Below are positions 3,821-25,237 of a DNA stretch of 64,000 nt, in pieces. Where the stretch lies: positions 74,594 to 138,593 of the forward strand of contig JAIORP010000068.1 of NCBI GenBank assembly GCA_021108075.1, written 5' to 3'. Position 1 is the stretch's first letter; every line of letters starts with the position of its first letter. The notes beneath the pieces were generated by a model that had not been told where the DNA came from, did no database searches, and worked only from the letters and a program-made list of their open reading frames with translations. This DNA comes from Candidatus Omnitrophota bacterium (GTDB taxonomy: Bacteria; Omnitrophota; Gorgyraeia; Zapsychrales; Zapsychraceae). The position numbers and the translations under genes were made by a program.

Positions 3821-4684
3821 GTGGAGATTGCTGCGATGACGATCAAAAAAAAGGATCGGAAGCTTTTAGAAGCCGTGAAAAAGGTGGGCTACCAAGAAGG
3901 CGAAACGTTTTTTGGCGGCAGAGCGGTAAACGATATCGGCCTTGAAACAGTTCAGTCTTTGATACGGAACGGGGCAAATGTCAATATGCAGGATGAGGGA
4001 AACGGGTCGACGCCATTGATTCACGCCATTCAAAATTGTAATTTTAAAATTGCCGATTTCCTTATAAGTTCAGGTGCTGATGTTAACCTGCCCAATCGAG
4101 CCGGAGTCTCCCCACTGCACATGGCCGCCATGGTCAGTACTAAAGCGGTATCATTTCTCCTTGAAAAGGGAGCCGATTACAGTTTAAAGACAAAAGACGG
4201 CGTTTCAATTATTGAATGGGCGGAACAAAATAATCTCACAGGCGCTATCGAGACGATAATGGCATGGAAGAATAGGCCCCAGAAGAAGAATAACCCCATG
4301 GGCTTTCTGAAGAAACTTTTTGGCAAAAGAAAAATCACGGAAAGGTCAGTCGACGCCAAACAGTCATCGCAAGGGGCGAAGAAGCTGCCAGATATATTTT
4401 GCGTTGTGACTGATGTGCCTGTGGAAGATCCCGGCGGAGTTGGGAACAGTGTTCTGGATAAGTATGACATAGAAATAGGCCTTGATACGGCTGTTTTGGT
4501 GGTATGCAATAACCGTGTGGTGTGTCAGGCTGAACCGGACCTTCCCTATTTTATGGCGATAGCAATGAGAATAGCAAAGGATAAAGGGTGGCCTCAGGAC
4601 AAAATTAATTATGATAAAATTGTCTGTCGCAGATTTATAATAGATTCGCCCCAAAGAACCAGGGGGTATATCATGACCGTTTAA
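3821..4684 (+). CDS. ankyrin-repeat protein
   Basis: Three to four ankyrin repeats (GANVNMQDEGNGSTPLIHAIQNCNFKIADFLISSGADVNLPNRAGVSPLHMAA...LLEKGADYSLKTKDG) followed by a ~150-aa region of unknown function. Confidence 0.75.
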   Translation: MEIAAMTIKKKDRKLLEAVKKVGYQEGETFFGGRAVNDIGLETVQSLIRNGANVNMQDEGNGSTPLIHAIQNCNFKIADFLISSGADVNLPNRAGVSPLHMAAMVSTKAVSFLLEKGADYSLKTKDGVSIIEWAEQNNLTGAIETIMAWKNRPQKKNNPMGFLKKLFGKRKITERSVDAKQSSQGAKKLPDIFCVVTDVPVEDPGGVGNSVLDKYDIEIGLDTAVLVVCNNRVVCQAEPDLPYFMAIAMRIAKDKGWPQDKINYDKIVCRRFIIDSPQRTRGYIMTV

Positions 4685-5877: not shown

Positions 5878-6462
5878 ATGAATGTTCAAAAAAAATGGCT
5901 TATGTTTATGACTATTTGTGTATTGTTTTTTAGTGATCCTTTGAACGCTTCTGCCGACAGATGTGCGGATGTCTTTGATAAAGGCCATCAGAAATTTAAA
6001 GCAGCTAAAGAAGCAGGAGGGCAAAAAAAATATAACCAATCGATTCGACTTTATAAAGAGGCGCAACGGCACTATTGGCAGGCTTCAAACATGATGAATT
6101 GCAAATGTCCTAAACTCAATAAGACGGCCAAGAATAATGTTAATATATGTGATGGCAATATTGAGATAATGAAAAAGAATCTGAAGACTCAAACGAAGTA
6201 CCAAAAGAATTTGAATACCGAGGCCAAGGCCTATGATAAGTATAATAAAGCCCAACGGATATTTGAACAGGGCGATTCATTTGCCAAACGAAAGCAATGG
6301 TCTCGGGCGTATGAAGCATATCGGGAAGCGGCTATGCTTTGGGAGAGCGTTGCAATGACAAACCGATCTGAAAATGGACGGAAGGCCAGGCAAGCTGCCC
6401 GGCAAGCACGCGATCTCGCGAAAAAAGCCCGGCAGCAAAAACGTCAATCGTCTGGAAGGTAA
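5878..6462 (+). CDS. hypothetical secreted Lys/Ala-rich protein
   Basis: AAGGAG RBS 7 nt upstream of ATG 5878. Signal peptide MNVQKKWLMFMTICVLFFSDPLNASA. Basic coiled-coil-like C-terminus. Confidence 0.5.
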   Translation: MNVQKKWLMFMTICVLFFSDPLNASADRCADVFDKGHQKFKAAKEAGGQKKYNQSIRLYKEAQRHYWQASNMMNCKCPKLNKTAKNNVNICDGNIEIMKKNLKTQTKYQKNLNTEAKAYDKYNKAQRIFEQGDSFAKRKQWSRAYEAYREAAMLWESVAMTNRSENGRKARQAARQARDLAKKARQQKRQSSGR

Positions 6463-6489
6463 ATTAAAATGGTTCGAAAAAAATGGGGT

Positions 6490-6540
6490 ATCGCAGACGC
6501 TGTATTGATCAGTATGAGGTAGAATCACATGCGAATAAAA
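6490..6540 (+). repeat. Left copy of a ~50-bp direct repeat flanking the GC-rich island. It contains a TAGAAT hexamer and a conserved hairpin.
   Basis: tcgcagacgctgtattgatcagtatgaggtagaatcacatgcgaataaaat aligns with 7962-8014 at ~85% identity. The stem tcgca/tgcga covaries with ttcgta/tacgaa in the partner copy. Confidence 0.6.
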
Positions 6541-6698
6541 TGCGGGTGTCTCCCCGTCTATACGCCTGTCAGCGGCGTCAGGATTTCGATCGAGGATGGA
6601 ATTGTTTTGTGAGTCTGAGGGCAGATTGTCGCTGCGGACAGCGTCTGCACCAGAATTCGATAAAGAAATATTAAGATTGATCTAATCGAGGGGGCCTT

Positions 6699-7958
6699 AT
6701 GACTAATGAAACGTCAAGACAAACTTCGTCCAGTTCTGGTCCTACGATCTTTCAAGCCTTTATTTGGGGTTTCATGGTCGCGGCGTTTGGCTCACTCTTC
6801 GCCTTCATCGGGAGCCTGATAAGCGATAAACCCGTGCTGCCCCCGGCAGCTGATACCCTTCACGGTGCTTCCACGCCCGCAGAGATGAATCGGGTTGTCG
6901 ATACGCTCCTCTCGGTTGGGAATTTGGCGATCGAACATGATAGCGCGCTGGTCTTGAAGCTGGGATTTACCATCATTGCCTTGTGCGTTCTGACCGTTAT
7001 AGCCACGGTGTGGATCGTCACTCATCGGCGACAGCTTCAGCGCGCGTTGGTCCCGACGTGGCACACGGTGTTACTGATCCTGATGCTGGCTGTGCCGCCT
7101 ATCATCATCACCGTTGGGGCTTGTTTCATGAAAGGCAGCTTGTTCCAGTCTTCTGAGATATCCCACGCCCTGCAAAACGAGAACACTCGCCCGCCGGTCG
7201 TCCGGAAAGGGGCAATGGTAACGGTGCTTATCCCGACAACCTTGCAGTCGTTCTTTGCTTATCACAAGTGTGATTCGTTTAAAATAGAGCATGCCATGGC
7301 TGCGTTGCCCTCGGGTGAGCGCATACCCGTGACCCTGGCTGATGCCCGTTTCAATGACGGCGGACGCAAGCCCGGCAGTACCGACTTCATCCCGCTGATG
7401 GAAAATGTCAAGCTGCGCCTGCAGTTCACCTTGCCGGATGACCCTGAACTTTACGGTGCTGTGATCGACCTGGGCGTTTCCGGATCGCTTAACCTGATTC
7501 CCAGCAGTAGCAAAGAACCGACAGACCGCGAAAATTTCGACATGACAGCGCGTTTTCGTGTCGCGCGTGACCAGGAAGCGGATTTCCAGGAAGACTACGA
7601 TGCGCTTACGTCGAGAGTGACGCGCTACAACTGGTTCTCTTTCCCTTCGGCTGGGTTTGCGATCCTTGGGATCATATTTTTCAGCCCGTGGATGTGCCGG
7701 AAATGCCGTGGGCGGGTCAGCGCCTTCAAGATCAGGGAAGATCATCTTTGTCCGAAGTGCTTTGAAGAACGGCAGAAGGCTGCCGAGGTTAAGAAGAAGA
7801 CCGCTGCGAAAAAAATTTTTTCCGCGCCAGCCACTGACGATCCAAAAAAGCAAGCTGCGCAGAATGAGGCTTCAAAGCTTTCCTGTCCGAATGGTCACGG
7901 GCCCTTACGATTGTGGGATGGCAAACTAAAATGTTGGACCTGTGGGTGGGAGTCCTAA
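6699..7958 (+). CDS. hypothetical membrane protein with C-terminal zinc-ribbon motifs. GC-rich and probably horizontally acquired.
   Basis: GC ~55-58% against ~38% in the flanks. Three to four TM helices. Cys pairs CRKCRG...CPKCFEE and CPNGH...CWTCGW. Confidence 0.5.
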   Translation: MTNETSRQTSSSSGPTIFQAFIWGFMVAAFGSLFAFIGSLISDKPVLPPAADTLHGASTPAEMNRVVDTLLSVGNLAIEHDSALVLKLGFTIIALCVLTVIATVWIVTHRRQLQRALVPTWHTVLLILMLAVPPIIITVGACFMKGSLFQSSEISHALQNENTRPPVVRKGAMVTVLIPTTLQSFFAYHKCDSFKIEHAMAALPSGERIPVTLADARFNDGGRKPGSTDFIPLMENVKLRLQFTLPDDPELYGAVIDLGVSGSLNLIPSSSKEPTDRENFDMTARFRVARDQEADFQEDYDALTSRVTRYNWFSFPSAGFAILGIIFFSPWMCRKCRGRVSAFKIREDHLCPKCFEERQKAAEVKKKTAAKKIFSAPATDDPKKQAAQNEASKLSCPNGHGPLRLWDGKLKCWTCGWES

Positions 7959-7961
7959 AAC

Positions 7962-8014
7962 GTTCGTAGACGCTGAATTGATCTGAATGCGGTAGAATCA
8001 CATACGAACAAAAT
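7962..8014 (+). repeat. Right copy of the ~50-bp direct repeat flanking the GC-rich island
   Basis: gttcgtagacgctgaattgatctgaatgcggtagaatcacatacgaacaaaat. The same core (gacgctg...ttgatc...ggtagaatcacat.cgaa) is present in the left copy. Confidence 0.6.
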
Positions 8015-9592: not shown

Positions 9593-10491
9593 GATAAAAA
9601 TTTGTAACACATGCACGGTTCCCGTTGTTAGGGAGAAAGACTTCCCTGGCGAAGATTTTCAATGATTTTTTATAGTTGTAAAGAATTTATTTCATTAACG
9701 CGTTTTTGTGTTTTTAGATGTTTCGGGATGCGGGAAGCCTATTGAGAGAATCACACCCGGATCTCTCAATAGTAATTTTCAATTTATTTTATTTGACCCC
9801 CGGTTGATGGATACAAAATAATAGATTTATTCCTTGTCGAATATCAGCCATTTTCCTGAATAATAAGAATGGAAAGAACAGCTGTTTCTTTTTTTAGGAT
9901 AAAACGCTTGATTCCGGTCAAAGGACATGATTGAATACGTATATATCAAATATCAAAATTTAAGAATAATATCAGGGAAGTGGTGCTTTTGTGTTTTTTA
10001 AATTACCAGGGAATGCGCTGGTTTTTTTAATATAGCTGATCCTGAAGAGCGACTAAAATGCTTGAAACAGTTAAAGTTAAGTTAAAAAACATGGTATGGT
10101 TTGCAAGAACACGACGGGAAAAAAAGGAAAACCCGCAAGATAAAACCACAAAAAATAAATGCGATTTATAGTGCGACCTGTTTAAAATCGAGTTAATTCG
10201 GATCATTGATCCGAATCATCCGCTGGCAAATCTGATGAAACAAATAACGGCTCAGCATTTGATCAACGATTTGAGAAGCATTTTGCGGATGAAGGACGGC
10301 CAGCGAGCTCGAAACGATTGATGGTCAGTTTATATTATTTGGTCGGTCCTGAAAAAGCCTGTTTTTAGGCTGTCAGGATCATCTGCTTTAGTAACAGACA
10401 TATGCCGTAACCGGAATGAGATAAAATTTATTTAATTCAGGTCATGGCGCGTGTCTGACATTTATAACCCGGATTTCTTTTGGAGGATAAC

Positions 10492-13400
10492 ATGAAAAGG
10501 TTTATTTACTTATCCCTGATTTCCCTGTTGATGCTTCCGTCCTTACATCATCAAACAGTTTATGCTAAAGAAGAGATGACGCAAGGGATCGGTCAAGAGC
10601 GGCAGGATCGCGGGAATGACTCTCAGTTCAGCATTCAAGAAATTTATGTTCCTTATGAAAATTTGAATGAGGCTTTACAAAAAAAAGAGAAGGGTGTTTT
10701 GATCCCGTATTCTGATTTTTTGCGCTTATGGGAGAAAGCGTCTAAAAAGCCGCCGTCAAAGGCTCCTCCGGTTCCCCCCGTGGACGCGGCTATCATTCAC
10801 TCGGAATACAAGGGAAAGGTTCTTGATGATATTGCCGAGTTTGAAGCGGAACTGAAAATTTCCGCCTTAAAAGAAAAATGGGCTAAATTACATTTAAATA
10901 TAAAAGATATCGCGATTACATCCTTATCTCTTAACGGGAAAACTCCTCTTTTGAAACCGGTTAAAGGGGGATTAGAACTGATCCTGCCGGAAAAAGGTGA
11001 GTATATTCTTAAAGTGAATTTTTCCGCGCAAGTCAATACGTCTCCCGGAGAAAAATTCATCCATTTCCGCGTCCCGTCATCACCTCTTACCAAAATAGAT
11101 ATGACTGTTCCCGGCAAAGATTTAGATGTTAAAATTGAGCCGATGCTTTCTAAGAAAAGTAATGTCGACGGAGATAATACGAAATTCTCCGCGTTTCTCG
11201 CTCCGGGAGGCGATGTGAATATCCGGTGGTTAGCGAAAACAACGGACACGAAAGTAACCAGGAGTCTTATCTTCGCGAAATTATTGAATGAAGTGAATAT
11301 TAAAGAATCTGTTTATTTAATCAACACAAAAATTAATTTTTCGATTATGCAGGCGGAAACAGATTCCTTCCAGGTCAAGATTCCCAAAGCGTTAAGTCTT
11401 GTCCGCGTGGATGGAAAAAACATTAAAGATTGGGAAATGAGTGAAGAGGGGGTCCTAACGGTTAACCTCTATGAAAAAATAGACGGTCAGTATATTCTTT
11501 CTGTGAGCACGGAAAAATACCGTGATTTAGAAGAGAACTCTTTTGAAATCCCTCAGTTTGAAGTGCTTAATGCCAAGAGAGAAGAGGGGGAAATTATTAT
11601 TAAAGCCGAACCGTCTTTACGCGTTCAGGTTGAGAAAAAAGACCGCGTCACACAAATTGATCCGAAAGAACTTCAAGGCCGGGTGACATTTAATGAACTT
11701 GTCTCAGCTTTTAAATATTTTCGACGTCCCTTTCATGTCAGTTTAAATATTTCTAAAATTCAGCCTAAAATTACCGCTGAACAGAATGTTTTTATTTCTT
11801 TTTCTGAAACAATTATTGATTATTACACGAATGTAAAATTTACGGTAAAGGACGCGGGGTTGTTTAAGTTCAGATTTATTATTCCGGATAATTTTAGAAT
11901 CGTTGAGGTCGGATCAGATCAAACGGTTGATAGCTTTGATGTTTCTAAAGAAAAGGATCAGAATATTTTAACTGTTATTTTGAAGAATAAAGCTTACGCC
12001 AATTTTTTGTTACCGATTCATCTGGAAGCCGATAAGGAGGATAAGGATGTTGTGTTGGCTTTGCCGAAAGTTCAATGTTTAGACGCGGAAAAGGAAGAGG
12101 GGATTATTACTCTTTCTCTTCGTAAAAATCTTAAATTATCGACGGACGATATGAAATCTTTGCGTCCGATCAGTCTGGAAGAATTAAAGTCCCAGGGGAC
12201 AAGAGATCCGGATATCAAGAATGAGATAGCAGCAGGTTATCGCTACGCGACACCGGATTATTCCTGTCGTTTGAAAATTGATAAAAGAAAGACAAAAATT
12301 ATCGCGAGTGTTGAACGGAATATTGATGTTGAAGAAGCTGTCATGAAAATTAATGATGTTATCCGTTACAATATTTTATACGCTCCGACAAGTTTGTTCC
12401 GGATAGAGCTTCCTGCCGCGATCGCGAAAGACGTTATTATCAGCGGGAACAATATTAAGGAAAAACGGCTGGCCGTTAATGAAGAAATTCAAAAAGGCGT
12501 TTGGACCATTGAACTTCATTCTCCGACGCTGAATAATTTTGATTTAAATGTTAGTTTCGAAAAGAAACTTCCGTCGATCAAGACAGGAGATGAAAGAATA
12601 ATTGAGGTGCCGGGGATCAGGGTCATTGATGTTTTTAATGAGACCGGGTATATCTCAGTATCGAAAAGTCCTGATCTTCAGGTTGAAGCTAAAGAAAAGA
12701 ATTTAGATCCCGTGGATTCAAAAGAAATTCCTGCCGCTATGAATCGTAGCCAGAGTGTGCTCGCTTTTAGATATTTAAGTCATCCGTACGCGCTTTCTCT
12801 GGAAACGACGAAACATGAGTATGAAAAAATATTGGATGCTGTTGTTAATCAAGCTCATTTTGATATTGTTGTTTCTAATGAAGGTGTCGCGAAAACAGAA
12901 GGGGTTTTCAGAATACAAAATACCAACCGGCAGAGTCTTGAGTTGACCATGCCGGAAGGAATAGATAAAATTTATTCTGTTTTTATTTCCGGTAAAAAAG
13001 CGGGTATATCAAAGGGGGGTTCGGATAGAAGTAAAATTATTATGTTGCCTAAAGATATCGCGCCGGGTAAAGAATTCACGTTGAGAATTATTTATCAAAC
13101 CCAGATAAAATCTAAATTTGGATTCTGGGGCGGACTTCACGTGAAAGGCGCGGAGATTATGGATATTCCCTGTTCGAAGATTACCTGGAGGCTGTATCTT
13201 CCGAATGAATACAGTTATCTGTATTTAAAAGGTTCCATTAATCCCGGCAGAGATGAGCATCGCGCTTATAATCATGTTAATGCTGCTGTGCAATCCCGAC
13301 GGGTCCATCATCAAACAAAAATTAATTTAACCCGTAATCAGATTCCTCAGCAAACAGATGAAGGGACTCTTTACGGCTTAGATATTGAGATGGTCCGGGA

Positions 13401-13764
13401 GGGTCGAATGTTTTCTTTCTCTAAGTTGGATAAAAATGCTTATTTAAATGTGTGTTATCTGAAGAAAAACATTATGTTTCCCTTAAGCATTATTATTGTG
13501 GTCCTGTCAACGTTTTATTTTATAACCCTGACGCAAAGAAAAGATCCGAATAAAACTAAAATGACTTGTGCTATTATCGGAGCGGTGATTGCGTTATATG
13601 TTATTCTGCCTCAAGGGTTTAAACATTTTATGTTTTTGATGCTGGTGGGGGTTGTTTTTTCCGGGGTTGTTTTGGTTATTCAAGCTTATCGGAAGAAAAA
13701 GAAAATGGGTTTAAATGCAGAAACAAACTGTAAAACTTCCGTTCAAAAAGAGAAGAAAATTTAA
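10492..13764 (+). CDS. giant-protein module 1: secreted ~1090-aa protein of unknown family with a C-terminal 3-TM anchor
   Basis: GGAGG RBS before ATG 10492. Signal peptide MKRFIYLSLISLLMLPSLHHQTVYA. Three hydrophobic helices in the last ~100 aa. Shares motifs (GVLIPY, RYF.RPF, TW..Y.PNEYSYLYL) with the downstream giant ORF. Confidence 0.85.
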   Translation: MKRFIYLSLISLLMLPSLHHQTVYAKEEMTQGIGQERQDRGNDSQFSIQEIYVPYENLNEALQKKEKGVLIPYSDFLRLWEKASKKPPSKAPPVPPVDAAIIHSEYKGKVLDDIAEFEAELKISALKEKWAKLHLNIKDIAITSLSLNGKTPLLKPVKGGLELILPEKGEYILKVNFSAQVNTSPGEKFIHFRVPSSPLTKIDMTVPGKDLDVKIEPMLSKKSNVDGDNTKFSAFLAPGGDVNIRWLAKTTDTKVTRSLIFAKLLNEVNIKESVYLINTKINFSIMQAETDSFQVKIPKALSLVRVDGKNIKDWEMSEEGVLTVNLYEKIDGQYILSVSTEKYRDLEENSFEIPQFEVLNAKREEGEIIIKAEPSLRVQVEKKDRVTQIDPKELQGRVTFNELVSAFKYFRRPFHVSLNISKIQPKITAEQNVFISFSETIIDYYTNVKFTVKDAGLFKFRFIIPDNFRIVEVGSDQTVDSFDVSKEKDQNILTVILKNKAYANFLLPIHLEADKEDKDVVLALPKVQCLDAEKEEGIITLSLRKNLKLSTDDMKSLRPISLEELKSQGTRDPDIKNEIAAGYRYATPDYSCRLKIDKRKTKIIASVERNIDVEEAVMKINDVIRYNILYAPTSLFRIELPAAIAKDVIISGNNIKEKRLAVNEEIQKGVWTIELHSPTLNNFDLNVSFEKKLPSIKTGDERIIEVPGIRVIDVFNETGYISVSKSPDLQVEAKEKNLDPVDSKEIPAAMNRSQSVLAFRYLSHPYALSLETTKHEYEKILDAVVNQAHFDIVVSNEGVAKTEGVFRIQNTNRQSLELTMPEGIDKIYSVFISGKKAGISKGGSDRSKIIMLPKDIAPGKEFTLRIIYQTQIKSKFGFWGGLHVKGAEIMDIPCSKITWRLYLPNEYSYLYLKGSINPGRDEHRAYNHVNAAVQSRRVHHQTKINLTRNQIPQQTDEGTLYGLDIEMVREGRMFSFSKLDKNAYLNVCYLKKNIMFPLSIIIVVLSTFYFITLTQRKDPNKTKMTCAIIGAVIALYVILPQGFKHFMFLMLVGVVFSGVVLVIQAYRKKKKMGLNAETNCKTSVQKEKKI

Positions 13765-13783
13765 AACACGGGAAACAAGGATT

Positions 13784-16700
13784 ATGAAAAAAATTTGTAC
13801 ATCCCTGATTTGTCTTTCTGTCTTCTTTTCTTTTTCCGCTTATGCTGAAGACAGGTCTTCGACGCGGATCAAGAATCAAACAGCAGAAACGCTTATCTTT
13901 TTTCCTGAGAAGGAGATAGGGGAAATATTCAAGGCGGAAAAAGAAGGTGTTCTGATACCTTATAAAGAATACAAAAGTCTTTATGAAAAAGCCAGACAGG
14001 AGTACGGGGAAAAAAGAGAGCGGATCATTCTTAATGAAGACATTAAAGGTCCGCAGATCGTTCAAGCTCATTATGATGGATCTGTTCAGGGGGATTTACT
14101 GAAAGTTTCGGTCCGGTATCAGATTGTTCAGAATGACCCGGAGCCGCGAGTTTTACAATTGCCTTTTGGGATTGTTGAAAAATGTGCGGACGCAAGACCC
14201 TGCCGGATGAACGCGGGGGAGTATTTATCGCTGGCCGCGCAAACGAGTGGGAAAAAAACGCGGCAGACGGGTGTTTCGCGTCCGTCTGTTTCTAAAAATG
14301 TTCTTTTTTTGAAGGCGACGCTCAATAATGAGAACGCTCATATCTATAACGATAACAAAACGCCGTCCCTTATTATCCCTTCAAACGGAACCTTTACTTT
14401 AATAATTGATTTTTTTATTCCAATTAATTTTAAGGATAAGACAGGAAATATCGCTATCGATATACCTCCGGCGATGCTGGGGCAGGTCGCGATATCGACA
14501 GATATTTTTTATGATGTCCGTTTTAAAGATTTTCTTTTGACATCAAAAAAACAGGTTGATGACAAAATGGAGTTTCTTGGTTTTCTGCCGTCGATGGAAA
14601 CGTCATTGTCTTTTGAAATAACGAATCGGCGTTCTTCCGGAGAAAAAAGAGTTAAAATCAAGTCACAGGAAGAGCATCAGGCTTTTTTATCCGAGGATCT
14701 GATTGAACAGACGATTATGTATGATATGGATGTTGAAAACGGCGAGGTTGACAGGGTTGATATAATCATCGCGAAAGACCTTAATATTTATGATATATCC
14801 GGGTCTATTATTTCAAATTGGTCTCGGGAATCTAAAGAAGACACGGATATTCTGCATCTTTATTTTCATGTTCCCTTGAGTACGGGGATAACATTTGCTC
14901 TGAAAACATATCAGTATCCGGACGCGGCCTCCGGTATGTTTACTCTAGCGGACGTGCGCGTCGAGAATCTTTTTGAGAGGAAAGGAATTCTCGCGGTTTT
15001 TTATGATGATAGTATGCGGATAAACGCGCGTCAGGTTGATTTTTTATTACCGTTAAGCGGGGAAGGGGGAGTACGAAGACAGCATGAATCTGATCGGTAT
15101 GTTCTTTTTAGGGAGTATCATGTTTTTAATCTGCCTTATAAAATTTCTTTTTCTCAGAAAGATGTTCCCCTGGAGGTGACCCTGTTTCAAAATAATGAAA
15201 TAAAATTGGAACATGCCAGGATCCTATTTCAATCAGAGGTTACTCTGTCCGGGATTACTGAAGAGATAACACGGTTTAATTTTCAAGTTCCGGATAAATA
15301 TGTTTTAAGAAATTTAGACGCTTTTTTAAATGGTGAAGTTGTTAATGAAAATCATCGGCATTTTATGGAAACAGGAGAATTGTCCATTGACATCAGGAAT
15401 CCGGTGAACTTGAAAGATGAAATAACATTTCTGCTTACTTTTGAGCGAATTCTCAACGAGAAATTTTTTATGGATCAATCGTATCCGATTGCTATCCCCG
15501 CGATAACGTATCTGAACACAAAAAAGATGATCGGATCTCTTCAGGTTATAATTGATGAGGAGTTTTTGTTAGAGGATATTATCCTGAAAGGCTATTATCC
15601 CGCCCTGGAGATGATGACGGCTTCTTCATCCCAAACATTAAATAAAAATCTTTTATATGATTTTCGAACGCTCTCGCCGGAAGGATCGCTGGTTCTTTCT
15701 TATCGAAAAGCGGAACAGACAACTCAAACGATCACTTATGTGGCTGTTGACCAGGACCTTCTTCAAACGAATGCCTATATAAAATATGACATCACGGCCG
15801 GCAAGAAAGACCATTTTTATTTTGCTATTCCGCGATGGGAAGACAGCAAAATAAATATTGAAGGTCTTAATATTAAGGAAAAGAAGAAAATAAGTGAGGA
15901 GAAGTTAAAAGAGCTGCTGAAGGACCCCCTGATTCTTGACTTGAAGGATTATGATATTTGGAATGTTGTTCTTCAAAAAGAAATAATAGGTTCTTATTCG
16001 CTGGAAATTGATTATCAGAAAAAAATAGAAAAATTTGATGTCCTTACGGATATTCCTTTGATCATACCGCTCGATATTATTAATGATACCGGTTATATTG
16101 TTTTAGAAGCCAGTAAGAATACGGAAATTGACGCGCAAAAAGTCGGTTTAAATGATATTGAAATTTATGAAATTCCTCAGTGGCCTTCGTATAAACCGTC
16201 TAATCGTATTATTGAATCCTTGCGCTATTTTACACGTCCTTTTACGTTCCGCATTGCTGTTAGGCGCATGGATGAAACCCCTGTTCTTTCCTCGATAGCC
16301 GAAAGAGAAACAATTGTATATACCTTTGGAGAAGACTCGGATATTTTTTTTAAATGTGATTATGTCATCCGCAATACCAATCTTCAGTTTCTTGAAATTC
16401 AGCTCCCGAAAAGATTTGTTCTCTGGGGGGCCACGTTAAAAGGACAGGGAATTAAGCCCCGGAAAGGAAATGACAACCGTTTGTTTGTTCCTCTCCCGAC
16501 GGAAAGTGACCAGAATATTCATTTATCTCTGACCGGACAGATGGTCCGTAAGGGGAAATTCAGGGCCTGGGAATCATTTGATTTTCAAAGTCCCCGATTG
16601 AGTATCCCCTGTCTGCAGTCAAATACCACTGTTTATTTTCCGGAAAAATATTCTCTTCTCAATATTGGAGGTAATTTTGAAAAGTATCCGGAAGCGGAGT

Positions 16701-19700
16701 ATCACAGACCGTTATTGTTTCTTTCTTTAAAAGATCTATGTTTTTTTATCGGAGGAAACGCGATCAATTTGTTTTCTCCCGGATATATATCGCGCGGTCT
16801 TCAGGGACGAATCAGAAGTGTCAACGAGGATATCGGCGATCAATTTGCTCCCGGGAATGCGGTGTTTACGCAGCAAGGACAGGTCCGTGATGCTCCTCAA
16901 GATTTTCAATCGGGAGAACAGTTCGAGGGAGGTATCGGAGCAACGATGCAGTATGAGCCTTATTATTTAGAATCAAATTATGAGGTCACAAGAGATAGAG
17001 AGGTGGCTGTGTCGGAGGAAGAGTCTCTTGAAGAGCAGATGGTGAATTATGACGGACGGCAGCAAATGATGCGGTATGAAAGGAAATACAGTAAAAAGAA
17101 AGGTATTCTTTCCTTGAATATTGATATCCCGCGAGAGGGGCAATCTTTAGCCGCCTATAAACTGTGGGGGAATAGCCGCCTTCAGGTGACATTTATTTCC
17201 GATGTCTGGAAAAGGGTTTTTCATTTTTGTTTTCTTTTTCTTTTTATTGTTTTAGGTTTTCACGTAAAAAGAAAAAAAATAATGTCGTCTTTTATGTTTC
17301 TTGTTTTGACCCTTGTGGTTTGCACGCTTATTCCTCTTGTTGTTTTAAAATCATTTCTTTTTATTTTTAACGGCGCTGCTTTAGGCGCTATCGCGTTTGT
17401 TTTTATTCTGGGGGGTATGAAGCTGGTCAGGAAATTTGCCGGAAAATTCGGTTTTTATAGTGTTCTTTTTTGTCTGGTAGCTTTAACAGGTTTTGCTTGT
17501 CCACGGAACGGGTACGCTGAGGTAAGGGCCGGGAATATGGGTGAACGCCTGTATTCGCCGGACGGTTGTTGTCCTGATGAGGAAGAGAACGACGCGTTTC
17601 CGTCTGTCCGTGTGTACATCCCTTATTCAGAAAATTTTTTGAACGAGATTCAGGGTCATAGTAGAGTTTATATCCCCACTCAAGATTATTTCCGCCTTAA
17701 ATTTTTGGCGGAACCGCCGTATGAACCGAAAGATACGTTTAAATTTGAAAACGAATATGATATTACCGGATTGTTTTTAGCCGGGGAGCTGCAGACAGAT
17801 CGGATTCAGTTTGCGGCAACCGTTGATATTTTTATTAATAACGATAAATGGATACTGGTTGATCTTCCGTTTAAGAATGTGTTTATTGAAAAGTTGACCC
17901 TGGACGGACAATCAATTCCGGTTAAAGTGAAACAATCCGGACCGGGGTGTTTTGAAAGCTTTTTCAAGAGCGCGGAGCCGTATTGTTCGCCGGGGGAGGC
18001 GGATCTTTATGAAATTCCTGTTCTTGGCCGCGGACATCATTCGGTGGACTTAATATTCTTTGTGGAAATTCAATCTTCGCCGGGGAAGAAGACTTTGTCT
18101 TTCGGGCTTCCTCCTGCTCTTTTTTCGGATTTTTCTTTGGATTTAAAGCGTAAGGATGTTTTTCTTGAATTTGAAAAACCGAATAATAGTTTTTATTTGG
18201 ATGAAAGCGGTGTGAACCCTGTTGTTAAGGCGTCTTTGTCCCGACAATCAGAATTAAAACTGTCCTGGTTTCCTAAAAAATATCTTAAAAAGACAGAAAA
18301 ACCTCTTATTTACGCGGACTGCAATATTGATATGCTGATGGGTTATGAAGAAATTATTATTGTTCAAGAAACAAAGATCAGGGTAGAGAAATCTTCAATC
18401 GCGTCATTAAGTTTTTTCCTGGAACCGGATATTGTTATTGTGGATGTTTTTTCGAATAAGGTTAAGAATTGGCAAACACGACAGGAGAAAGGACAATCGG
18501 TCTTAGATGTTATTTTTAAACATGAGATCACGGACACCGTCGATATTGTCATTAAAGCGAAACGGAATGTGAGGCCGGATACGGTTTCTCCGGTGATATT
18601 TTTAAAGCCCCAGACAACAAAAAGGATTCACGGGACACTTAATTTGTTTGCGTCCGAAGAGGATAAACTTATTATTGAAAATGTGACGAATTTAAACCCG
18701 GCGGGGACAACCCGGCAGCACCAGCAAGGGGTGCCGGGCATGAAATTGCTTAAAAGTTATTCTTTCCTGACAGGAGATTTCAGCGCGCGGATTGAAAAGG
18801 TTCCGGAAGAACGAAAAGTCGCCGCCCGGATGAATAGTCAGCATGTTTTCTCGGAAAACCTTTTGAATTCCACATATGACATTAATTTGAATATCAAAAA
18901 GAATTTTCTTACAGCGATACAAATTATTCTTCCCCGGGGGCAAAAGATTGATGCTATCCATGCGGAAAACACGTCAGATTATAGTTTGCAGGATAATATT
19001 CTTGTTTTGCCTTTTAAAAGGGCGGTTAAAGGAAAGTACCGTTTTCAATTAAAGCTGGAAAGAGAAATAGACAATTTTTCTTCAGCCGCTATTGAAAGCA
19101 TTCAACTGCCTGATGTGCAAAAGGTAACCGGCGCTTCGGTTGTATTGTTCCCGCGTGGGTATGATGTTAAGGAGGTGTCTGTTTCGGGTTTAAGGTCGGC
19201 TAACATCAATACGGTGACTCCGTTAATCAAAACGGATCAAGGAGATTACGGCGCGAAATATGCCTATGTTCTTCGTGAAAAGAATTATACGGCCCGGTAT
19301 AACATATTCAAAAAAGATTCTTCTTTGGATGTGATTAAAATTTATCATTCAACCGTGAAAGATAATCTTGTCAGCGTTAAGCTTTTGAGTATTTTTAATA
19401 TCAAGAATGCCCCTGTCGACCATTTTGATATTATCGTCCCGGTTGATTTGAAAGATTCTATTGAAATTCAAGGTGAGGGAATTCAAACGATTCTTAAAAA
19501 AGTTATTAATGAGGGAAAAAGTGTCGCGATTACGGTTAATACAATAGCTAAGATCGATCATTCCTATATGCTACAGGTTTCTTTTAATCGTTATTTCGGT
19601 AATGATAAAACTTTTCATATGCCGCGCATTGTTTTTCCTCAGGCAAAAAACAAAACAGAGTTTATCGCTGTTGAAGCGGACACGGTTTATCATGTGGAAT

Positions 19701-21790
19701 CTTTTGTGAGTGAGTCTCTGTATGAGGCGGAACCGGACAGGATTCCCGCGTTGCCGGATGGGATTGATTTAAATAAAATTCTTTGGTCTTACCAATCCTC
19801 AGGGTCCGCGGAGTGGCAGTGTCGCCTGGAATTAAAACGGTTAGAACGTGAAAAATTGGTTAAAGCCAAGATATTGAGAGAAGACATAAAAACACTTCTT
19901 ATTCCGAATGGTCACGCGTTACATCAAATTGAAATAAAGATAAACAATCGAACGCTTCAGTTTTTGCCTGTTCACTTGCCGTCAACAGCATCTCTTTGGA
20001 GTCTTAAAGTTGCCGGAGAAAATGTTAGAGCGTCGTTAGTCCCGTCAGATAAGAAGGGACAAAAAAAATATTTGATCCCTCTTATTAAAAGCGGGGTCGG
20101 GGATAGAAGTTTTGATATTAAATTGATTTACATTACGCCCCTTAAAGAATTAGGGTTGTTCGGCCGGATTAATTTGTCGAATATGATCAAAACAGGCGAT
20201 GTTCCGGTTGAAAAAACAACATGGTCGGTTTTTGTTCCGGATAATTATTCTTATTTTTATTTCCGATCGAATTTAGATGAAAGTGATATTTCTATTATTG
20301 AAGCTGAAAAGACTCTGGAATTAGCTAAAGAGTATAAGTATTGGACAGATCTGGCCAGTTCAACAAAAGGAGGATTGCGGGAAAAGGCCCTGGATAATCG
20401 GAAAAAGGTTATGAAGGATTATGGGGCTCAATATTCAAGCTACCAGCGTGTGGAGACAGATTTAGCAGGACGGGAAGGAGATAACACATATAATCAGGGG
20501 ATCATTCACAAAGCCAGGTCTCAGAATACGCGGATGCTGGATGAAGCTTCGAAAATTGTTGAATATAACAAAGCCGATTCGCGGACCGTCAATCGCCAGT
20601 TGATTCAATCGGACAAAAAAGCCATGTCAGGACGGAGAAATGTAAAGGGCTGGCAAATTAAAACAAATGATTTCGGCGGGGAAGATCAGGTTGAACAGTC
20701 GATTACAAATTATCTTCAGCAGGAAGATTTGAAACAGTCTGTTAAAGGTAAGGGCGGAAAAGATAAAGGACGCAAATATTCCAAGTCGCAGCTTTTGGGG
20801 AGGAAACAGGCGCAATCAGCCCGTCAAAAAAAGGATATGGCCAGATCGTCTTTGAAGGGCCGGGCGCGTCAACAAGGCGGGTATCAAACGTCACAGACAA
20901 TGGACGTCTATGATTATGAGGATCAAACAACTCAGACAGAGCATATTTTTTATAAACAAAGCGATATGTCTGAGGGGAAAATGATAGTTAATGGGCTTGC
21001 GCGGGGTGCTGGTCGAGAGAAGGAAGAGTCTGGTTCCTTTTGGGGAGCGGATGGGTCTGCCCCGGCTCCAATTGTTCAAATTTTTTCCGGGGCAGGTAAC
21101 AAGATGCCGATTCAACAGCAGCAGGAAAAAAGAAGCACACTTCTTAAGGGACTTCGATCTATTGATATTCCTATTCCGGAACAAGGTATACGCTATTCTT
21201 ATAAGAAGTTAGGGGGAAATCCGCAAATAAAATTCTATTACCGCAGGAAAGGAAGCCTGTTGAAAATATGTTTGCTTTTGATGTGTATGGTTGCTGTCGG
21301 CGGGATTTATAAGTTTCGTCAATACCGTTTTCCTAAGGAGAAATTATTAGGAGTTTTTAAAGGAATAAACCCGGTAACTATTGTCCGTAAGATTATAGAC
21401 TCGCAGTTGCTAAGAATTGTGATTGTTGTTCTTATTGTTCCGACCTTTTTTATGCAGTCGCCGATTTGTGTTGTGTTAGTAGGCCTTTCCAGTGTTTTTC
21501 TTTTGACGCATATCTCTAAGAAACGTTATCGGAAGATAGGATATGTCCCGGTGTATAGTTTTATAATATTTTTAAAATATTTTATTTCCTACGCGATTCT
21601 GCTCGTGTCCTTCTTGAGCTTTTTTCATATGTCTTTTCTTTTTCTCGTCGGTGTTGGAATATTTTTTAATGTTATATGGATTGTTATTTATAGTATTGTT
21701 ACATTGTGCACAAAGAAAGTTGTGCTTAAGAATCCTGAAAATTCAAACGATGAGGGCGTATCGTCTTTTTCCGGTGAGGGGCCGGCATAG
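13784..21790 (+). CDS. giant ~2668-aa protein of unknown family, made of two tandem modules paralogous to 10492-13764
   Basis: Signal peptide at ATG 13784 (MKKICTSLICLSVFFSFSAYA). A central cluster of four TM helices at ~17200-17500 is followed by a signal-peptide-like segment (LTGFACPRNGYAEV). A second TM bundle lies at the C-terminus. The recurring motifs are EGVLIPYKEYKSLYEKA, RVYIPTQDYFRLKF, RYFTRPF and TWSVFVPDNYSYFYF. Confidence 0.85.
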   Translation: MKKICTSLICLSVFFSFSAYAEDRSSTRIKNQTAETLIFFPEKEIGEIFKAEKEGVLIPYKEYKSLYEKARQEYGEKRERIILNEDIKGPQIVQAHYDGSVQGDLLKVSVRYQIVQNDPEPRVLQLPFGIVEKCADARPCRMNAGEYLSLAAQTSGKKTRQTGVSRPSVSKNVLFLKATLNNENAHIYNDNKTPSLIIPSNGTFTLIIDFFIPINFKDKTGNIAIDIPPAMLGQVAISTDIFYDVRFKDFLLTSKKQVDDKMEFLGFLPSMETSLSFEITNRRSSGEKRVKIKSQEEHQAFLSEDLIEQTIMYDMDVENGEVDRVDIIIAKDLNIYDISGSIISNWSRESKEDTDILHLYFHVPLSTGITFALKTYQYPDAASGMFTLADVRVENLFERKGILAVFYDDSMRINARQVDFLLPLSGEGGVRRQHESDRYVLFREYHVFNLPYKISFSQKDVPLEVTLFQNNEIKLEHARILFQSEVTLSGITEEITRFNFQVPDKYVLRNLDAFLNGEVVNENHRHFMETGELSIDIRNPVNLKDEITFLLTFERILNEKFFMDQSYPIAIPAITYLNTKKMIGSLQVIIDEEFLLEDIILKGYYPALEMMTASSSQTLNKNLLYDFRTLSPEGSLVLSYRKAEQTTQTITYVAVDQDLLQTNAYIKYDITAGKKDHFYFAIPRWEDSKINIEGLNIKEKKKISEEKLKELLKDPLILDLKDYDIWNVVLQKEIIGSYSLEIDYQKKIEKFDVLTDIPLIIPLDIINDTGYIVLEASKNTEIDAQKVGLNDIEIYEIPQWPSYKPSNRIIESLRYFTRPFTFRIAVRRMDETPVLSSIAERETIVYTFGEDSDIFFKCDYVIRNTNLQFLEIQLPKRFVLWGATLKGQGIKPRKGNDNRLFVPLPTESDQNIHLSLTGQMVRKGKFRAWESFDFQSPRLSIPCLQSNTTVYFPEKYSLLNIGGNFEKYPEAEYHRPLLFLSLKDLCFFIGGNAINLFSPGYISRGLQGRIRSVNEDIGDQFAPGNAVFTQQGQVRDAPQDFQSGEQFEGGIGATMQYEPYYLESNYEVTRDREVAVSEEESLEEQMVNYDGRQQMMRYERKYSKKKGILSLNIDIPREGQSLAAYKLWGNSRLQVTFISDVWKRVFHFCFLFLFIVLGFHVKRKKIMSSFMFLVLTLVVCTLIPLVVLKSFLFIFNGAALGAIAFVFILGGMKLVRKFAGKFGFYSVLFCLVALTGFACPRNGYAEVRAGNMGERLYSPDGCCPDEEENDAFPSVRVYIPYSENFLNEIQGHSRVYIPTQDYFRLKFLAEPPYEPKDTFKFENEYDITGLFLAGELQTDRIQFAATVDIFINNDKWILVDLPFKNVFIEKLTLDGQSIPVKVKQSGPGCFESFFKSAEPYCSPGEADLYEIPVLGRGHHSVDLIFFVEIQSSPGKKTLSFGLPPALFSDFSLDLKRKDVFLEFEKPNNSFYLDESGVNPVVKASLSRQSELKLSWFPKKYLKKTEKPLIYADCNIDMLMGYEEIIIVQETKIRVEKSSIASLSFFLEPDIVIVDVFSNKVKNWQTRQEKGQSVLDVIFKHEITDTVDIVIKAKRNVRPDTVSPVIFLKPQTTKRIHGTLNLFASEEDKLIIENVTNLNPAGTTRQHQQGVPGMKLLKSYSFLTGDFSARIEKVPEERKVAARMNSQHVFSENLLNSTYDINLNIKKNFLTAIQIILPRGQKIDAIHAENTSDYSLQDNILVLPFKRAVKGKYRFQLKLEREIDNFSSAAIESIQLPDVQKVTGASVVLFPRGYDVKEVSVSGLRSANINTVTPLIKTDQGDYGAKYAYVLREKNYTARYNIFKKDSSLDVIKIYHSTVKDNLVSVKLLSIFNIKNAPVDHFDIIVPVDLKDSIEIQGEGIQTILKKVINEGKSVAITVNTIAKIDHSYMLQVSFNRYFGNDKTFHMPRIVFPQAKNKTEFIAVEADTVYHVESFVSESLYEAEPDRIPALPDGIDLNKILWSYQSSGSAEWQCRLELKRLEREKLVKAKILREDIKTLLIPNGHALHQIEIKINNRTLQFLPVHLPSTASLWSLKVAGENVRASLVPSDKKGQKKYLIPLIKSGVGDRSFDIKLIYITPLKELGLFGRINLSNMIKTGDVPVEKTTWSVFVPDNYSYFYFRSNLDESDISIIEAEKTLELAKEYKYWTDLASSTKGGLREKALDNRKKVMKDYGAQYSSYQRVETDLAGREGDNTYNQGIIHKARSQNTRMLDEASKIVEYNKADSRTVNRQLIQSDKKAMSGRRNVKGWQIKTNDFGGEDQVEQSITNYLQQEDLKQSVKGKGGKDKGRKYSKSQLLGRKQAQSARQKKDMARSSLKGRARQQGGYQTSQTMDVYDYEDQTTQTEHIFYKQSDMSEGKMIVNGLARGAGREKEESGSFWGADGSAPAPIVQIFSGAGNKMPIQQQQEKRSTLLKGLRSIDIPIPEQGIRYSYKKLGGNPQIKFYYRRKGSLLKICLLLMCMVAVGGIYKFRQYRFPKEKLLGVFKGINPVTIVRKIIDSQLLRIVIVVLIVPTFFMQSPICVVLVGLSSVFLLTHISKKRYRKIGYVPVYSFIIFLKYFISYAILLVSFLSFFHMSFLFLVGVGIFFNVIWIVIYSIVTLCTKKVVLKNPENSNDEGVSSFSGEGPA

Positions 21791-22766: not shown

Positions 22767-22830
22767 CCATTTTTTGCGTCTGAAAAACGGCAGGTGACCT
22801 TTGTGTTGTACGGATAAAAAAAGGAAAAAA

Positions 22831-24054
22831 ATGAAAAATAAACTTAAAATTATTCAAAGTATTGCGGTTGCCACCTTTTTTTTAAGCCCTTCTTTTATTT
22901 TCGCGGAAACAAGTCGTGATTTACAAACAGTGGTAAAAGGCAATAGTAATTTCGGTTTCGATTTATACCAAAATCTTAAAGGGGAAGAAGGGAATTTATT
23001 CTTTTCACCCTATAGCATCTCTACAGCACTCGCAATGACATATGCGGGCGCTCGGGGCCAAACAGAAAAAGAAATGGCAAGAGTCTTGCATTTTTCTTTG
23101 GAACAGGATTCCCTCCATTTTTCACTTTCAAAACTTCAGACCCATCTGAATGCCATTCAAAATAAAGGACATATTAAACTGAGTATAGCTAATTCATTAT
23201 GGGCGCAAAAGAATTATCTTTTTTTGGACACTTTTTTTGATTTGAACAAAAAGTACTACGGTGCTGGTTTAAATTTTGTTGATTTTGAAAAAGAAACCGA
23301 AACGGCAAGAATAGCCATAAATACATGGGTCGAAAATGAAACGCAGCAAAAAATCAAAGAGTTAATCAAACGGGGCGGGATTGATTCCGTAACGACATTG
23401 GTCCTCTGTAATGCGATTTATTTTAAAGGTAATTGGTTCAGTCAATTTGATAAAGAAAGGACAGCGGATGCTGATTTTTATATTTCACCCGTCAAAACCA
23501 TAAAGATTCCTATGATGAGCAAAAAATCAGAGTTTAAATTTAAAGATTTTGGTAATTTTAGCGCTATAGAGTTTCCGTACGAAGGAAATGATCTGTCCAT
23601 GATTGTTTTTCTCCCCAAAGAAATAGATGGCCTGGTAGAATTTGAAAGAAACCTGACAGATGATAACGTAGGAATTTGGACCGATAAACTGATAGCGTCT
23701 TATAAGTCGGAAATTTTGGTTGACTTTCCTAAATTTAAAACTACTTGTGAATTTGAATTATCGAAAATGTTTAGTGGCATGGGTATGCCGAGTGCTTTTT
23801 CGCTTCCCCCTGCTGATTTTTCCGGCATGACAGGCCGAAAAGACCTTTTTATAAGTAAAATTATTCATAAGGCTTTCATAGACGTCAATGAAGAAGGAAC
23901 AGAAGCTGCCGCGGCAACGGCCGTGGTTATGCAGATGTTCGCAATAAGTAGACCGTTAACATTTCGAGCAAACCATCCCTTTGTTTTTTTAATACGTGAA
24001 AGTCGAACAGGAAGCATTTTGTTTATTGGCAGGATTCTTGATCCAACAAAATAA
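22831..24054 (+). CDS. serpin (serine protease inhibitor), secreted
   Basis: Serpin motifs are FSPYSISTALAMTYAGARGQT, NAIYFKGNW, the hinge EEGTEAAAATAV and the C-terminal HPFVFLIRE...SILFIGRILDP. An N-terminal signal peptide is present. Confidence 0.85.
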   Translation: MKNKLKIIQSIAVATFFLSPSFIFAETSRDLQTVVKGNSNFGFDLYQNLKGEEGNLFFSPYSISTALAMTYAGARGQTEKEMARVLHFSLEQDSLHFSLSKLQTHLNAIQNKGHIKLSIANSLWAQKNYLFLDTFFDLNKKYYGAGLNFVDFEKETETARIAINTWVENETQQKIKELIKRGGIDSVTTLVLCNAIYFKGNWFSQFDKERTADADFYISPVKTIKIPMMSKKSEFKFKDFGNFSAIEFPYEGNDLSMIVFLPKEIDGLVEFERNLTDDNVGIWTDKLIASYKSEILVDFPKFKTTCEFELSKMFSGMGMPSAFSLPPADFSGMTGRKDLFISKIIHKAFIDVNEEGTEAAAATAVVMQMFAISRPLTFRANHPFVFLIRESRTGSILFIGRILDPTK

Positions 24055-24649: not shown

Positions 24650-25237
24650 ATGCACACAGTACTGAATAGAAATATTTTCTTCGTTAAAGAACACGTAGGA
24701 ATGTTCAAGGCAGCCAATAATTATGATATCTATGACCCCGACACCGAGTCGGTCATCATGGAGTGCCGAGAGGACCGACTGGGCATTCTGACCAGGATTT
24801 TAAGGTTCACAGACTACAAGCGAATGACCCCGTTTGATATACAGATCAGGACTCCGGAAGGACAGCAGGTCATTCGTGTGAAGAGGGGAATATCGTTGTT
24901 TCTGTCGAAGGTGCAGGTTCTGGATGAAAATGATCATGTCATCGGTATGTTTAAGCAGAAGTTTTTCTCGTTAGGTGGAGCCTTTACGGTACTCGACGCC
25001 AGTGAAAACCCGGTGTGCCAACTCAAAGGTAAATGGACGGGATGGGACTTTAAGTTTTTGGACGGTGAAACTGAACTGGCGCATGTTACTAAAAAGTGGG
25101 CGGGAATAGGTAAGGAGTTTTTTACCAGCGCGGATAACTATGTGTTGCAGATTTCAGACTGCGTGCCTACCGATGATGTGGCACGGTACCTGATCGTTGC
25201 CGCTGTAATGTGTATTGACATGGTATTAAAAGAATAG
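24650..25237 (+). CDS. tubby C-terminal-like / LURP-one-related (DUF567-like) protein
   Basis: ~195 aa with a pattern of alternating beta strands (FDIQIRTPEGQQVIRVKRGISLFLSKVQVLDENDHVIGMFKQKFFSLGGAFTVLD...) that resembles the scramblase/LURP1 fold. The assignment is tentative. Confidence 0.4.
   Translation: MHTVLNRNIFFVKEHVGMFKAANNYDIYDPDTESVIMECREDRLGILTRILRFTDYKRMTPFDIQIRTPEGQQVIRVKRGISLFLSKVQVLDENDHVIGMFKQKFFSLGGAFTVLDASENPVCQLKGKWTGWDFKFLDGETELAHVTKKWAGIGKEFFTSADNYVLQISDCVPTDDVARYLIVAAVMCIDMVLKE

What the first reader, a model, noticed from the sequence alone, without database searches (positions are those of the whole stretch)
17200..17560. Giant ORF B looks like an in-frame fusion of two formerly separate genes
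In the middle of ORF B there is a cluster of four hydrophobic helices. It has the same character as the C-terminal anchor of ORF A, and is followed by a segment resembling a cleavable signal peptide (…LFCLVALTGFACPRNGYAEV). After that the module-3 N-terminal motif (VRVYIPYSENF…RVYIPTQDYFRLKF) restarts. So the C-terminal anchor of module 2 and the signal peptide of module 3 are joined without a stop codon. This would be a record of gene fusion, or of stop-codon loss, within a tandem paralog array. It also means the mature product could be processed into two polypeptides.
Basis: partly seen in the sequence, partly recalled or inferred. Interest (0 to 1): 0.6.

Follow-up and report, generated by a model that had tools for sequence, protein, structure and literature searches.

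The report
Two-module membrane protein, internal signal peptide
The giant gene really does encode two complete "signal peptide, large outer domain, membrane anchor" units joined without a stop codon, but this is an ancient design shared by many bacteria from several phyla, not a recent accident in this genome.

Summary
ORF B (13784-21790, 2668 aa from its likely start) has four hydrophobic helices at 17216-17497. The first three match the 3-helix C-terminal anchor of ORF A. The fourth has the three-part build of a signal peptide: KLVRKFAGK / FGFYSVLFCLVALTGFA / CPRNGYA|EV. The N-terminal motif of the module then restarts. A, B-N and B-C are paralogues (E 1e-9 to 1e-35).

Every complete orthologous locus I found (Omnitrophota, Auribacterota, Desulfobacterales and others, with A down to 25% identity) has the same pair: a single-module gene A followed by a fused double-module gene B. 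I found no ortholog with B-N and B-C as separate genes.

A profile search found 9,676 relatives. All 77 proteins over 2,000 aa among the best 150 have a mid-protein helix cluster. Across 86 such proteins, the helix before module 2 resembles an N-terminal signal peptide and differs from ordinary membrane helices (p ~1e-15).

Best reading: an old, selected fusion in which the internal signal peptide exports module 2 and is probably cut by signal peptidase. Cleavage is untested. The family has no Pfam, NCBIfam or PDB match.

The parts
10492..13764 (+). ORF A: single-module paralogue, 1090 aa. Signal peptide MKRFIYLSLISLLMLPSLHHQTVYA|KEE, an all-beta ectodomain, and a 3-helix C-terminal anchor at 13477-13530, 13564-13611 and 13627-13689.
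   Evidence: It is 100% identical to a Candidatus Omnitrophica MAG protein. AF2 model pLDDT 79: tandem beta-sandwiches plus 3 C-terminal helices.
13784..21790 (+). ORF B: double-module gene, 2668 aa from the likely start. It begins 19 nt after the stop codon of A.
   Evidence: Called as a single 2668-aa gene in the source records and identical in 3 assemblies.
13784..13846 (+). N-terminal signal peptide of B: MKKICTSLICLSVFFSFSAYA|EDRS.
   Evidence: orthologs start in the same way.
13847..17215 (+). Module B-N: ectodomain plus the pre-anchor beta motif (KKGILSLNIDIPREG..KLWGNSRL).
   Evidence: HMM match to B residues 1-968; the pre-anchor motif is shared by all three modules.
17216..17419 (+). 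Three-helix anchor of module B-N (17216-17266, 17285-17347, 17354-17419). It is homologous to the C-terminal anchor of ORF A and carries the conserved FIFNGA motif.
   Evidence: Invariant residues F1154-F1205 in 7 orthologs. The loops follow the positive-inside rule: KRKKIM inside, KS outside.
17420..17518 (+). Internal signal-peptide-like element: n-region KLVRKFAGK (+4), h-region FGFYSVLFCLVALTGFA (17 aa), c-region CPRNGYA. The predicted signal peptidase I site lies between A1245 and E1246 (17518|17519).
   Evidence: Its character is conserved in all orthologs, but no residue is invariant between F1205 and F1272.
17519..17596 (+). Acidic linker of variable length (EVRAGNMGERLYSPDGCCPDEEENDA).
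   Evidence: Length varies from ~3 to 40 aa among orthologs; disordered in the AF2 model.
17597..17722 (+). Restart of the module's N-terminal motif (FPSVRVYIPY....RVYIPTQDYFRLKFLAEPPY).
17723..21256 (+). Rest of module B-C: ectodomain, a long charged stalk and the pre-anchor beta motif.
   Evidence: HMM match to B residues 1269-2168.
21257..21709 (+). C-terminal anchor of B, about five helices (21257-21310, 21407-21454, 21464-21514, 21560-21625, 21635-21709).

Best explanation
ORF B is a genuine, conserved gene for an inner-membrane protein with two large exported ectodomains.

Origin (inferred). A complete gene unit (signal peptide, ~900-aa beta-sandwich ectodomain, 3-helix anchor) was duplicated long ago and the copies were joined in frame. 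This happened before the cassette 'single-module A + double-module B' spread through several phyla.

Mechanism (inferred from topology):
1. The N-terminal signal peptide sends module B-N across the membrane.
2. Three helices anchor it and bring the chain back to the cytoplasm.
3. The positively charged loop KLVRKFAGK plus the fourth, short hydrophobic helix then act as a second, internal signal peptide. This restarts Sec translocation and puts module B-C on the same outer side.
4. The conserved small-x-small motif (GYA|E here) makes it likely, at about 55-60%, that signal peptidase I cuts there. That would give two membrane-anchored chains in fixed 1:1 ratio.
5. These two chains would assemble with the third paralogue, A.

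The biochemical role of the beta-sandwich arrays is unknown. My guess is an envelope scaffold or binding complex.
For: Paralogy and architecture:
- Three collinear paralogous modules.
- The A-profile matches B as module, anchor, module.

Conservation:
- The fused gene is present in all complete orthologous loci: L001-L004, L010-L012, L016-L018, L027.
- Genome neighbourhoods differ, so the cassette is self-contained.
- The single+double pair recurs in a third subfamily (L025).
- 9,676 relatives were found. All 77 proteins over 2,000 aa among the best 150 have a mid-protein helix cluster.

Signal-peptide character of helix 4:
- An n-h-c build with small residues at -3/-1 in every ortholog: ARA|E, LRA|E, ALC|E, ACA|E, ALA|E, ADA|K, AWS|D, ASA|E, GYA|E.
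- No invariant residue lies in it, whereas helices 1-3 have many.
- In 86 double-module proteins, small-x-small occurs in 97% against 69% for other helices and 88% for N-terminal signal peptides.
- AxA occurs in 45% against 10% (Fisher p 1.4e-15).
- Net charge of the next 15 aa is -0.70 against +1.11 (Mann-Whitney p 4e-16). N-terminal signal peptides give -0.88.

Topology: K/R-rich loops lie on the predicted cytoplasmic side. AF2 gives four helices, the fourth less confident.

Realism of fusion/fission: L007/L008 has the two units in one frame, separated by one stop codon.
Against: - No experiment and no dedicated signal-peptide predictor (SignalP, DeepTMHMM) was available. My site scoring is a home-made rule.
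- A small-x-small motif occurs by chance after 69% of ordinary helices in these proteins.
- The h-region of 17 aa is at the long end for cleaved signal peptides and could stay in the membrane.
- I found no ortholog with separate B-N and B-C genes, so 'formerly separate genes' is inferred from architecture only.
- An in-frame tandem duplication inside one gene would look the same.
- Distances between subfamilies are saturated, so one versus many fusion events is unresolved.
- The 86 proteins are related, so the p-values overstate independence.
Confidence: 0.6

Rival explanations
1. Uncleaved polytopic protein. The fourth helix is simply a fourth transmembrane helix (in-to-out) that returns the chain to the outer side. 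B stays one ~290-kDa chain with two giant outer domains, and the small-x-small motif is incidental.
For: The h-region is 17 aa, the orthologs have 13-18 aa, and AF2 builds it as a helix next to the bundle. Small-x-small is common after ordinary helices (69%).
Against: AxA is enriched 4.5-fold, and the acidic downstream flank matches N-terminal signal peptides and not the other helices. Helix 4 has no invariant residue, unlike helices 1-3. In distant members the h-regions are very short (10-13 aa) and could not span a membrane stably (examples).
Confidence: 0.3
2. Artefact, or a recent lineage-specific event: an assembly or sequencing error or a recent stop-codon loss merged two neighbouring genes in this genome only.
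For: None beyond the unusual architecture.
Against: The ORF is identical in three assemblies. The fused gene is present in all orthologs at 39-52% identity and in loci where A is only 25-44% identical.
Confidence: 0.02
3. Internal translation start. Module B-C is also, or instead, made separately from the in-frame ATG at 17417-17419 (MKLVRKFAGK...). The 'fusion' would then be two overlapping cistrons.
For: The signal-like element begins with Met in the window. It also does in L004 (MGMKR...) and in some distant members.
Against: The Met is absent in most orthologs (P0001-P0004, L002, L012). The only purine-rich run (GGGGGG) lies 1 nt from the ATG, too close for a ribosome-binding site.
Confidence: 0.06

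Closest known systems
Bradyrhizobium japonicum FbcH cytochrome b/c1 precursor (from my own knowledge: Thony-Meyer et al., Cell 1989 and PNAS 1991; I could not retrieve either paper here)
   Same: One bacterial ORF encodes a polytopic membrane part followed by an internal signal peptide and a second, exported, membrane-anchored part. The precursor is cut at the internal signal peptide to give two subunits of one complex.
   Different: The proteins are unrelated. In FbcH the two parts are not paralogues. Cleavage has been shown for FbcH and is only inferred here.
Viral envelope glycoprotein polyproteins (bunyavirus Gn-Gc, alphavirus p62-6K-E1, flavivirus prM-E); own knowledge
   Same: Ectodomains alternate with membrane anchors and internal signal peptides. 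Signal peptidase cuts the precursor, giving membrane-anchored partners in fixed stoichiometry.
   Different: Those are eukaryotic ER systems with unrelated folds. Here the protein is bacterial and its anchors have several helices.
Ribophorin I / Ost1 and the integrin alpha-chain legs (structural resemblance only)
   Same: A string of beta-sandwich domains on the outer side, held by C-terminal transmembrane helices. These are the top Foldseek PDB matches to the model of ORF A (E 3e-10 to 1e-7).
   Different: TM-scores are only 0.10-0.16 and sequence identity 8-12%. A profile search of PDB sequences found nothing. This is a generic fold resemblance, not evidence of shared function.

Membership tests
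Sec-type cleavable signal peptide (signal peptidase I substrate) | Positively charged n-region | tested here: met
   KLVRKFAGK has 4 K/R and no D/E. The mean n-region charge in 86 family members is +1.1.
Sec-type cleavable signal peptide (signal peptidase I substrate) | Hydrophobic h-region shorter than a normal membrane helix (about 7-17 aa) | tested here: inconclusive
   It is 17 aa here, 13-18 aa in the orthologs and 10-15 aa in many distant members. The N-terminal signal peptides of A and B have 15-16 aa. With my method the lengths did not differ from those of other helices (p 0.29).
Sec-type cleavable signal peptide (signal peptidase I substrate) | Polar c-region with small residues at -1 and -3 | tested here: met
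   CPRNGYA|E here. Every ortholog has a small-x-small motif. Across the family it occurs in 97% against 69% for other helices, and AxA in 45% against 10%.
Sec-type cleavable signal peptide (signal peptidase I substrate) | Located at the N-terminus of the translated chain | tested here: not met
   The element lies at residues 1213-1245 of 2668. It is an internal signal peptide at best.
Sec-type cleavable signal peptide (signal peptidase I substrate) | Actual cleavage by signal peptidase | not testable with these tools
   This needs proteomics or N-terminal sequencing.
Signal-peptidase-processed membrane polyprotein (FbcH type) | One ORF in which a membrane-anchored part is followed by an internal signal peptide and then a second exported part | tested here: met
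Signal-peptidase-processed membrane polyprotein (FbcH type) | Two mature polypeptides are produced | not testable with these tools
   No experimental data exist for this uncultured lineage.
Recent gene fusion / stop-codon loss in this lineage | Orthologs in related genomes keep the two parts as separate genes | tested here: not met
   All complete orthologous loci are fused. The only interruption is an in-frame TAG inside module B-C of L023, which is not at the junction.
Any curated protein family (Pfam-A, NCBIfam, PADLOC, PDB sequences) | A significant profile match | tested here: not met
   There is no credible match for A or B in Pfam-A, NCBIfam, PADLOC or PDB sequences. Five other family members also had no Pfam match to the module.

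The most novel reading that the evidence does not exclude
A very large, so far unnamed superfamily of bacterial envelope proteins (about 10,000 clusters at 50% identity, in several phyla) routinely makes two paralogous giant ectodomains from one ORF. The ORF acts as a membrane 'polyprotein' that signal peptidase cuts at a conserved internal signal peptide; in a few members the internal signal may be a lipoprotein type. The two chains then join a third paralogue, encoded by the gene just upstream, to form a three-part complex. This would be a widespread bacterial counterpart of viral glycoprotein precursors.
Probability: 0.35. Interest if true: 0.7.

Novelty: new variant of a known kind. Interest (0 to 1): 0.5.

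Why it matters
Internal signal peptides that are cut to release two membrane proteins from one bacterial ORF are known from very few cases. If this family works that way, the design is common and conserved across phyla rather than a curiosity.

It would also be a clean natural system for studying how the Sec machinery re-initiates export in the middle of a very long chain.

The work also defines a large family of roughly 1,100-aa beta-sandwich modules, with its typical gene pair (single plus double). Current domain databases do not cover this family.

Tried and rejected
- Pfam, NCBIfam and PADLOC scans of A and B, plus a PDB profile search with the A alignment: nothing credible. Five other family members also had no Pfam match to the module.
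- Rfam and tRNA scans of the whole window: nothing.
- My first two signal-peptide scoring schemes were too permissive or anchored at the wrong place. I replaced them with the 'last hydrophobic segment before module 2' analysis.
- A neighbour-joining analysis of 279 modules, meant to count fusion events: distances saturate (d>2) between subfamilies, so it gave no answer.
- Literature searches for FbcH-type polyproteins returned nothing usable. Papers on Omnitrophota giant proteins concern other, much longer proteins.
- A defence-island reading (CRISPR, toxin-antitoxin or TIR genes next to the cassette in L003 and L004) is rejected: the neighbours are not conserved and PADLOC found nothing.

Full report
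**What is in the sequence**

The window comes from a Candidatus Omnitrophica metagenome-assembled genome, because ORF A is 100% identical to protein K8S27_04735.

- ORF A runs from 10492 to 13764 (1090 aa).
- ORF B is an open frame from 13715 to 21790.
- B most likely starts at the ATG at 13784, giving MKKICTSL... and 2668 aa. Orthologs begin the same way, an AAGGA motif precedes it, and the source records call it there.
- The 8007-nt ORF is identical in three assemblies, so the uninterrupted frame is not an assembly error.

Hydropathy shows a cluster of four hydrophobic helices at B residues 1145-1238, which is window 17216-17497. An AlphaFold2 model of the junction fragment gives the same four helices. 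The first three have pLDDT 76-88 and the fourth about 57, followed by a disordered linker.

The loops follow the positive-inside rule:
- KRKKIM between helices 1 and 2 (4 K/R);
- KS between helices 2 and 3;
- KLVRKFAGK between helices 3 and 4 (4 K/R).

ORF A's C-terminal anchor has the same three-helix pattern and ends in a K/R-rich cytoplasmic tail.

A profile built from A orthologs matches B in three pieces:
- residues 1-968 against profile positions 1-910 (module);
- residues 1056-1209 against profile positions 897-1052, which is A's anchor (28.8 bits);
- residues 1269-2168 against profile positions 35-911 (module).

BLASTP confirms three collinear paralogous modules: A~BN 1.6e-28, A~BC 3.9e-35, BN~BC 2.5e-9.

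The fourth helix has the build of a signal peptide: n-region KLVRKFAGK, h-region FGFYSVLFCLVALTGFA, c-region CPRNGYA, then E1246. After an acidic linker the motif FPSVRVYIPY...RVYIPTQDYFRLKF begins. This is the same motif that follows the N-terminal signal peptides of A and B.

**Comparison with other genomes**

Close relatives of B (39-52% identity) are all 2,500-2,750 aa when complete. All keep the junction.

In every complete locus, a ~1,080-1,130-aa A ortholog sits directly upstream of a fused ~2,540-2,750-aa B ortholog:

| Locus | Source |
|---|---|
| L001 | unnamed ENA metagenome contig, 584 kb |
| L002 | Desulfobacterales HSG16; A 44% identical |
| L003 | unnamed bacterium; A 53% identical |
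| L004 | A only 25% identical |
| L010-L012, L016, L017 | GTDB genomes: four Omnitrophota and one labelled Planctomycetales (an Auribacterota locus, L015, is cut by its contig end) |
| L018 | metagenome contig |

Shorter cases are cut by contig ends. The only interruption is an in-frame TAG inside module B-C of L023, far from the junction. Genes flanking the pair differ from locus to locus, so the two-gene cassette is self-contained.

I found no ortholog with B-N and B-C as separate genes.

**The wider family**

A profile of A against 1.84 billion representatives found 9,676 proteins at E<=1e-3 and 3,445 at 1e-30. Lengths among the 148 of the best 150 that were analysed are bimodal: 62 are 900-1,400 aa and 77 are over 2,000 aa. 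All 77 long ones have a mid-protein hydrophobic cluster.

A third subfamily (P0016) again shows a single-module gene directly upstream of a double-module gene.

A, B and the family members I sampled match no Pfam or NCBIfam family. A and B match nothing in PADLOC, and the A profile matches no PDB sequence.

The AF2 model of A (pLDDT 79) is a string of beta-sandwich domains with three C-terminal helices. Its best PDB matches are ribophorin I/Ost1 and integrin alpha legs, at low TM-score. That resemblance is generic.

**Is the internal helix a signal peptide?**

In the orthologs the first three helices carry many invariant residues (for example the FIFNGA motif). There is no invariant residue between F1205 and F1272. 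Only the character of that stretch is kept:
- a basic n-region;
- a 13-18-aa hydrophobic core;
- a polar c-region ending in small-x-small, followed by a charged residue: ARA|E, LRA|E, ALC|E, ACA|E, ALA|E, ADA|K, AWS|D, ASA|E, GYA|E.

I compared three classes of hydrophobic segment across 86 non-identical double-module proteins:

| Feature | Last segment before module 2 | Other helices | N-terminal signal peptides |
|---|---|---|---|
| small-x-small within 10 aa | 97% | 69% | 88% |
| AxA | 45% | 10% | 29% |
| net charge of next 15 aa | -0.70 | +1.11 | -0.88 |

Fisher's test on AxA gives p = 1.4e-15. Mann-Whitney on the charge gives p = 4e-16. The sequences are related, so these p-values are optimistic, but the direction is clear.

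Many distant members have textbook internal signal peptides, such as ...AATAMLGLALLLTSHAQA|DNDD. A few look like lipoprotein signals.

**How the fusion could arise**

In L007, and independently in L008, a 1,528-aa gene and a 1,229-aa gene lie in the same frame. They are separated by one stop codon and 14 codons:

...CKRLWSVARKA*DARIGPSNSGMGENPMNSRRMARVSLLMLVLLGAGAVMA|APAEK

The first gene encodes a module, helices, a pseudopilin-like H-X9-DG domain and an anchor. The second encodes a signal peptide, a module and an anchor.

Proteins of the P0010 type (2,200-2,550 aa) have the same order of parts in one ORF, with an internal signal-like helix at the equivalent point. Loss or gain of a single stop codon therefore converts one form into the other. 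I could not resolve whether fusion happened once or several times.

**Conclusion**

*Shown:* B is a real, conserved gene made of two complete paralogous units joined in frame. The junction consists of a 3-helix anchor homologous to A's anchor, plus a signal-peptide-like helix. This design is old and widespread.

*Inferred:*
- The fourth helix re-initiates export, so both ectodomains lie outside (about 85% likely).
- Signal peptidase I cuts after A1245, giving two chains in 1:1 ratio (about 55-60%).
- These two chains pair with A (speculative).

The main rival is the same topology without cleavage (about 30%). Artefact or a recent fusion is excluded. An internal translation start is unlikely, because the Met is not conserved.

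The finding is correct as an observation. Its main interest lies in the possibility of a large family of bacterial membrane polyproteins.

Noticed in passing
L007:9860-10120 and L008:5389-5649: Two adjacent family genes (1,528 aa and 1,229 aa) lie in the same reading frame, separated by a single stop codon and 14 codons. The same arrangement appears in two assemblies. It is a natural 'split' counterpart of the fused double-module proteins of the P0010 type.
   Followed up: partly
L023:11847-11849 (protein P0009): An in-frame TAG interrupts module B-C of an otherwise intact B ortholog (..NMPLKR*IYADIF..), where relatives have a sense codon. It may be a nonsense mutation, a pseudogene or a sequencing error.
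   Followed up: partly
P0010-P0013 residues ~1087-1210; L007_up residues ~1080-1200: A subfamily, apparently from Planctomycetes/Verrucomicrobia-like genomes, carries a pseudopilin-like 'H-X9-DG' domain. The domain is preceded by its own hydrophobic helix and is inserted between module 1 and the anchor.
   Followed up: no
Loci of P0010 and P0017 (L026:2961-7884): Distant double-module genes sit next to ECF sigma-factor genes. In L026 a 1,460-aa vWA/TPR protein lies between the two. This hints at envelope-stress regulation in those lineages.
   Followed up: no
P0115, P0134, P0145, P0166, P0176 (internal segment before module 2): Some internal signal-like helices end in lipobox-like motifs (for example LTGC, LPLGC, MALSC), and two begin with Met. 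This suggests internal lipoprotein-type signals or relic start codons.
   Followed up: no
window 9593-10491: About 900 nt upstream of ORF A have no ORF of 60 aa or more, no Rfam match and no tRNA. That is unusually long for a non-coding stretch in an otherwise tightly packed, same-strand gene array.
   Followed up: partly
window 3821-4684, 22801-24054, 24650-25237: The cassette is surrounded by genes typical of eukaryotes: an ankyrin-repeat protein, a full-length serpin (E 1e-122) and a scramblase-family protein.
   Followed up: no
window 6001-8000: GC content is 0.50 here, against 0.35-0.39 in the flanks. The region holds a 419-aa membrane protein with C-terminal Cys-rich zinc-ribbon-like motifs and no Pfam match (6699-7958).
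   Followed up: no
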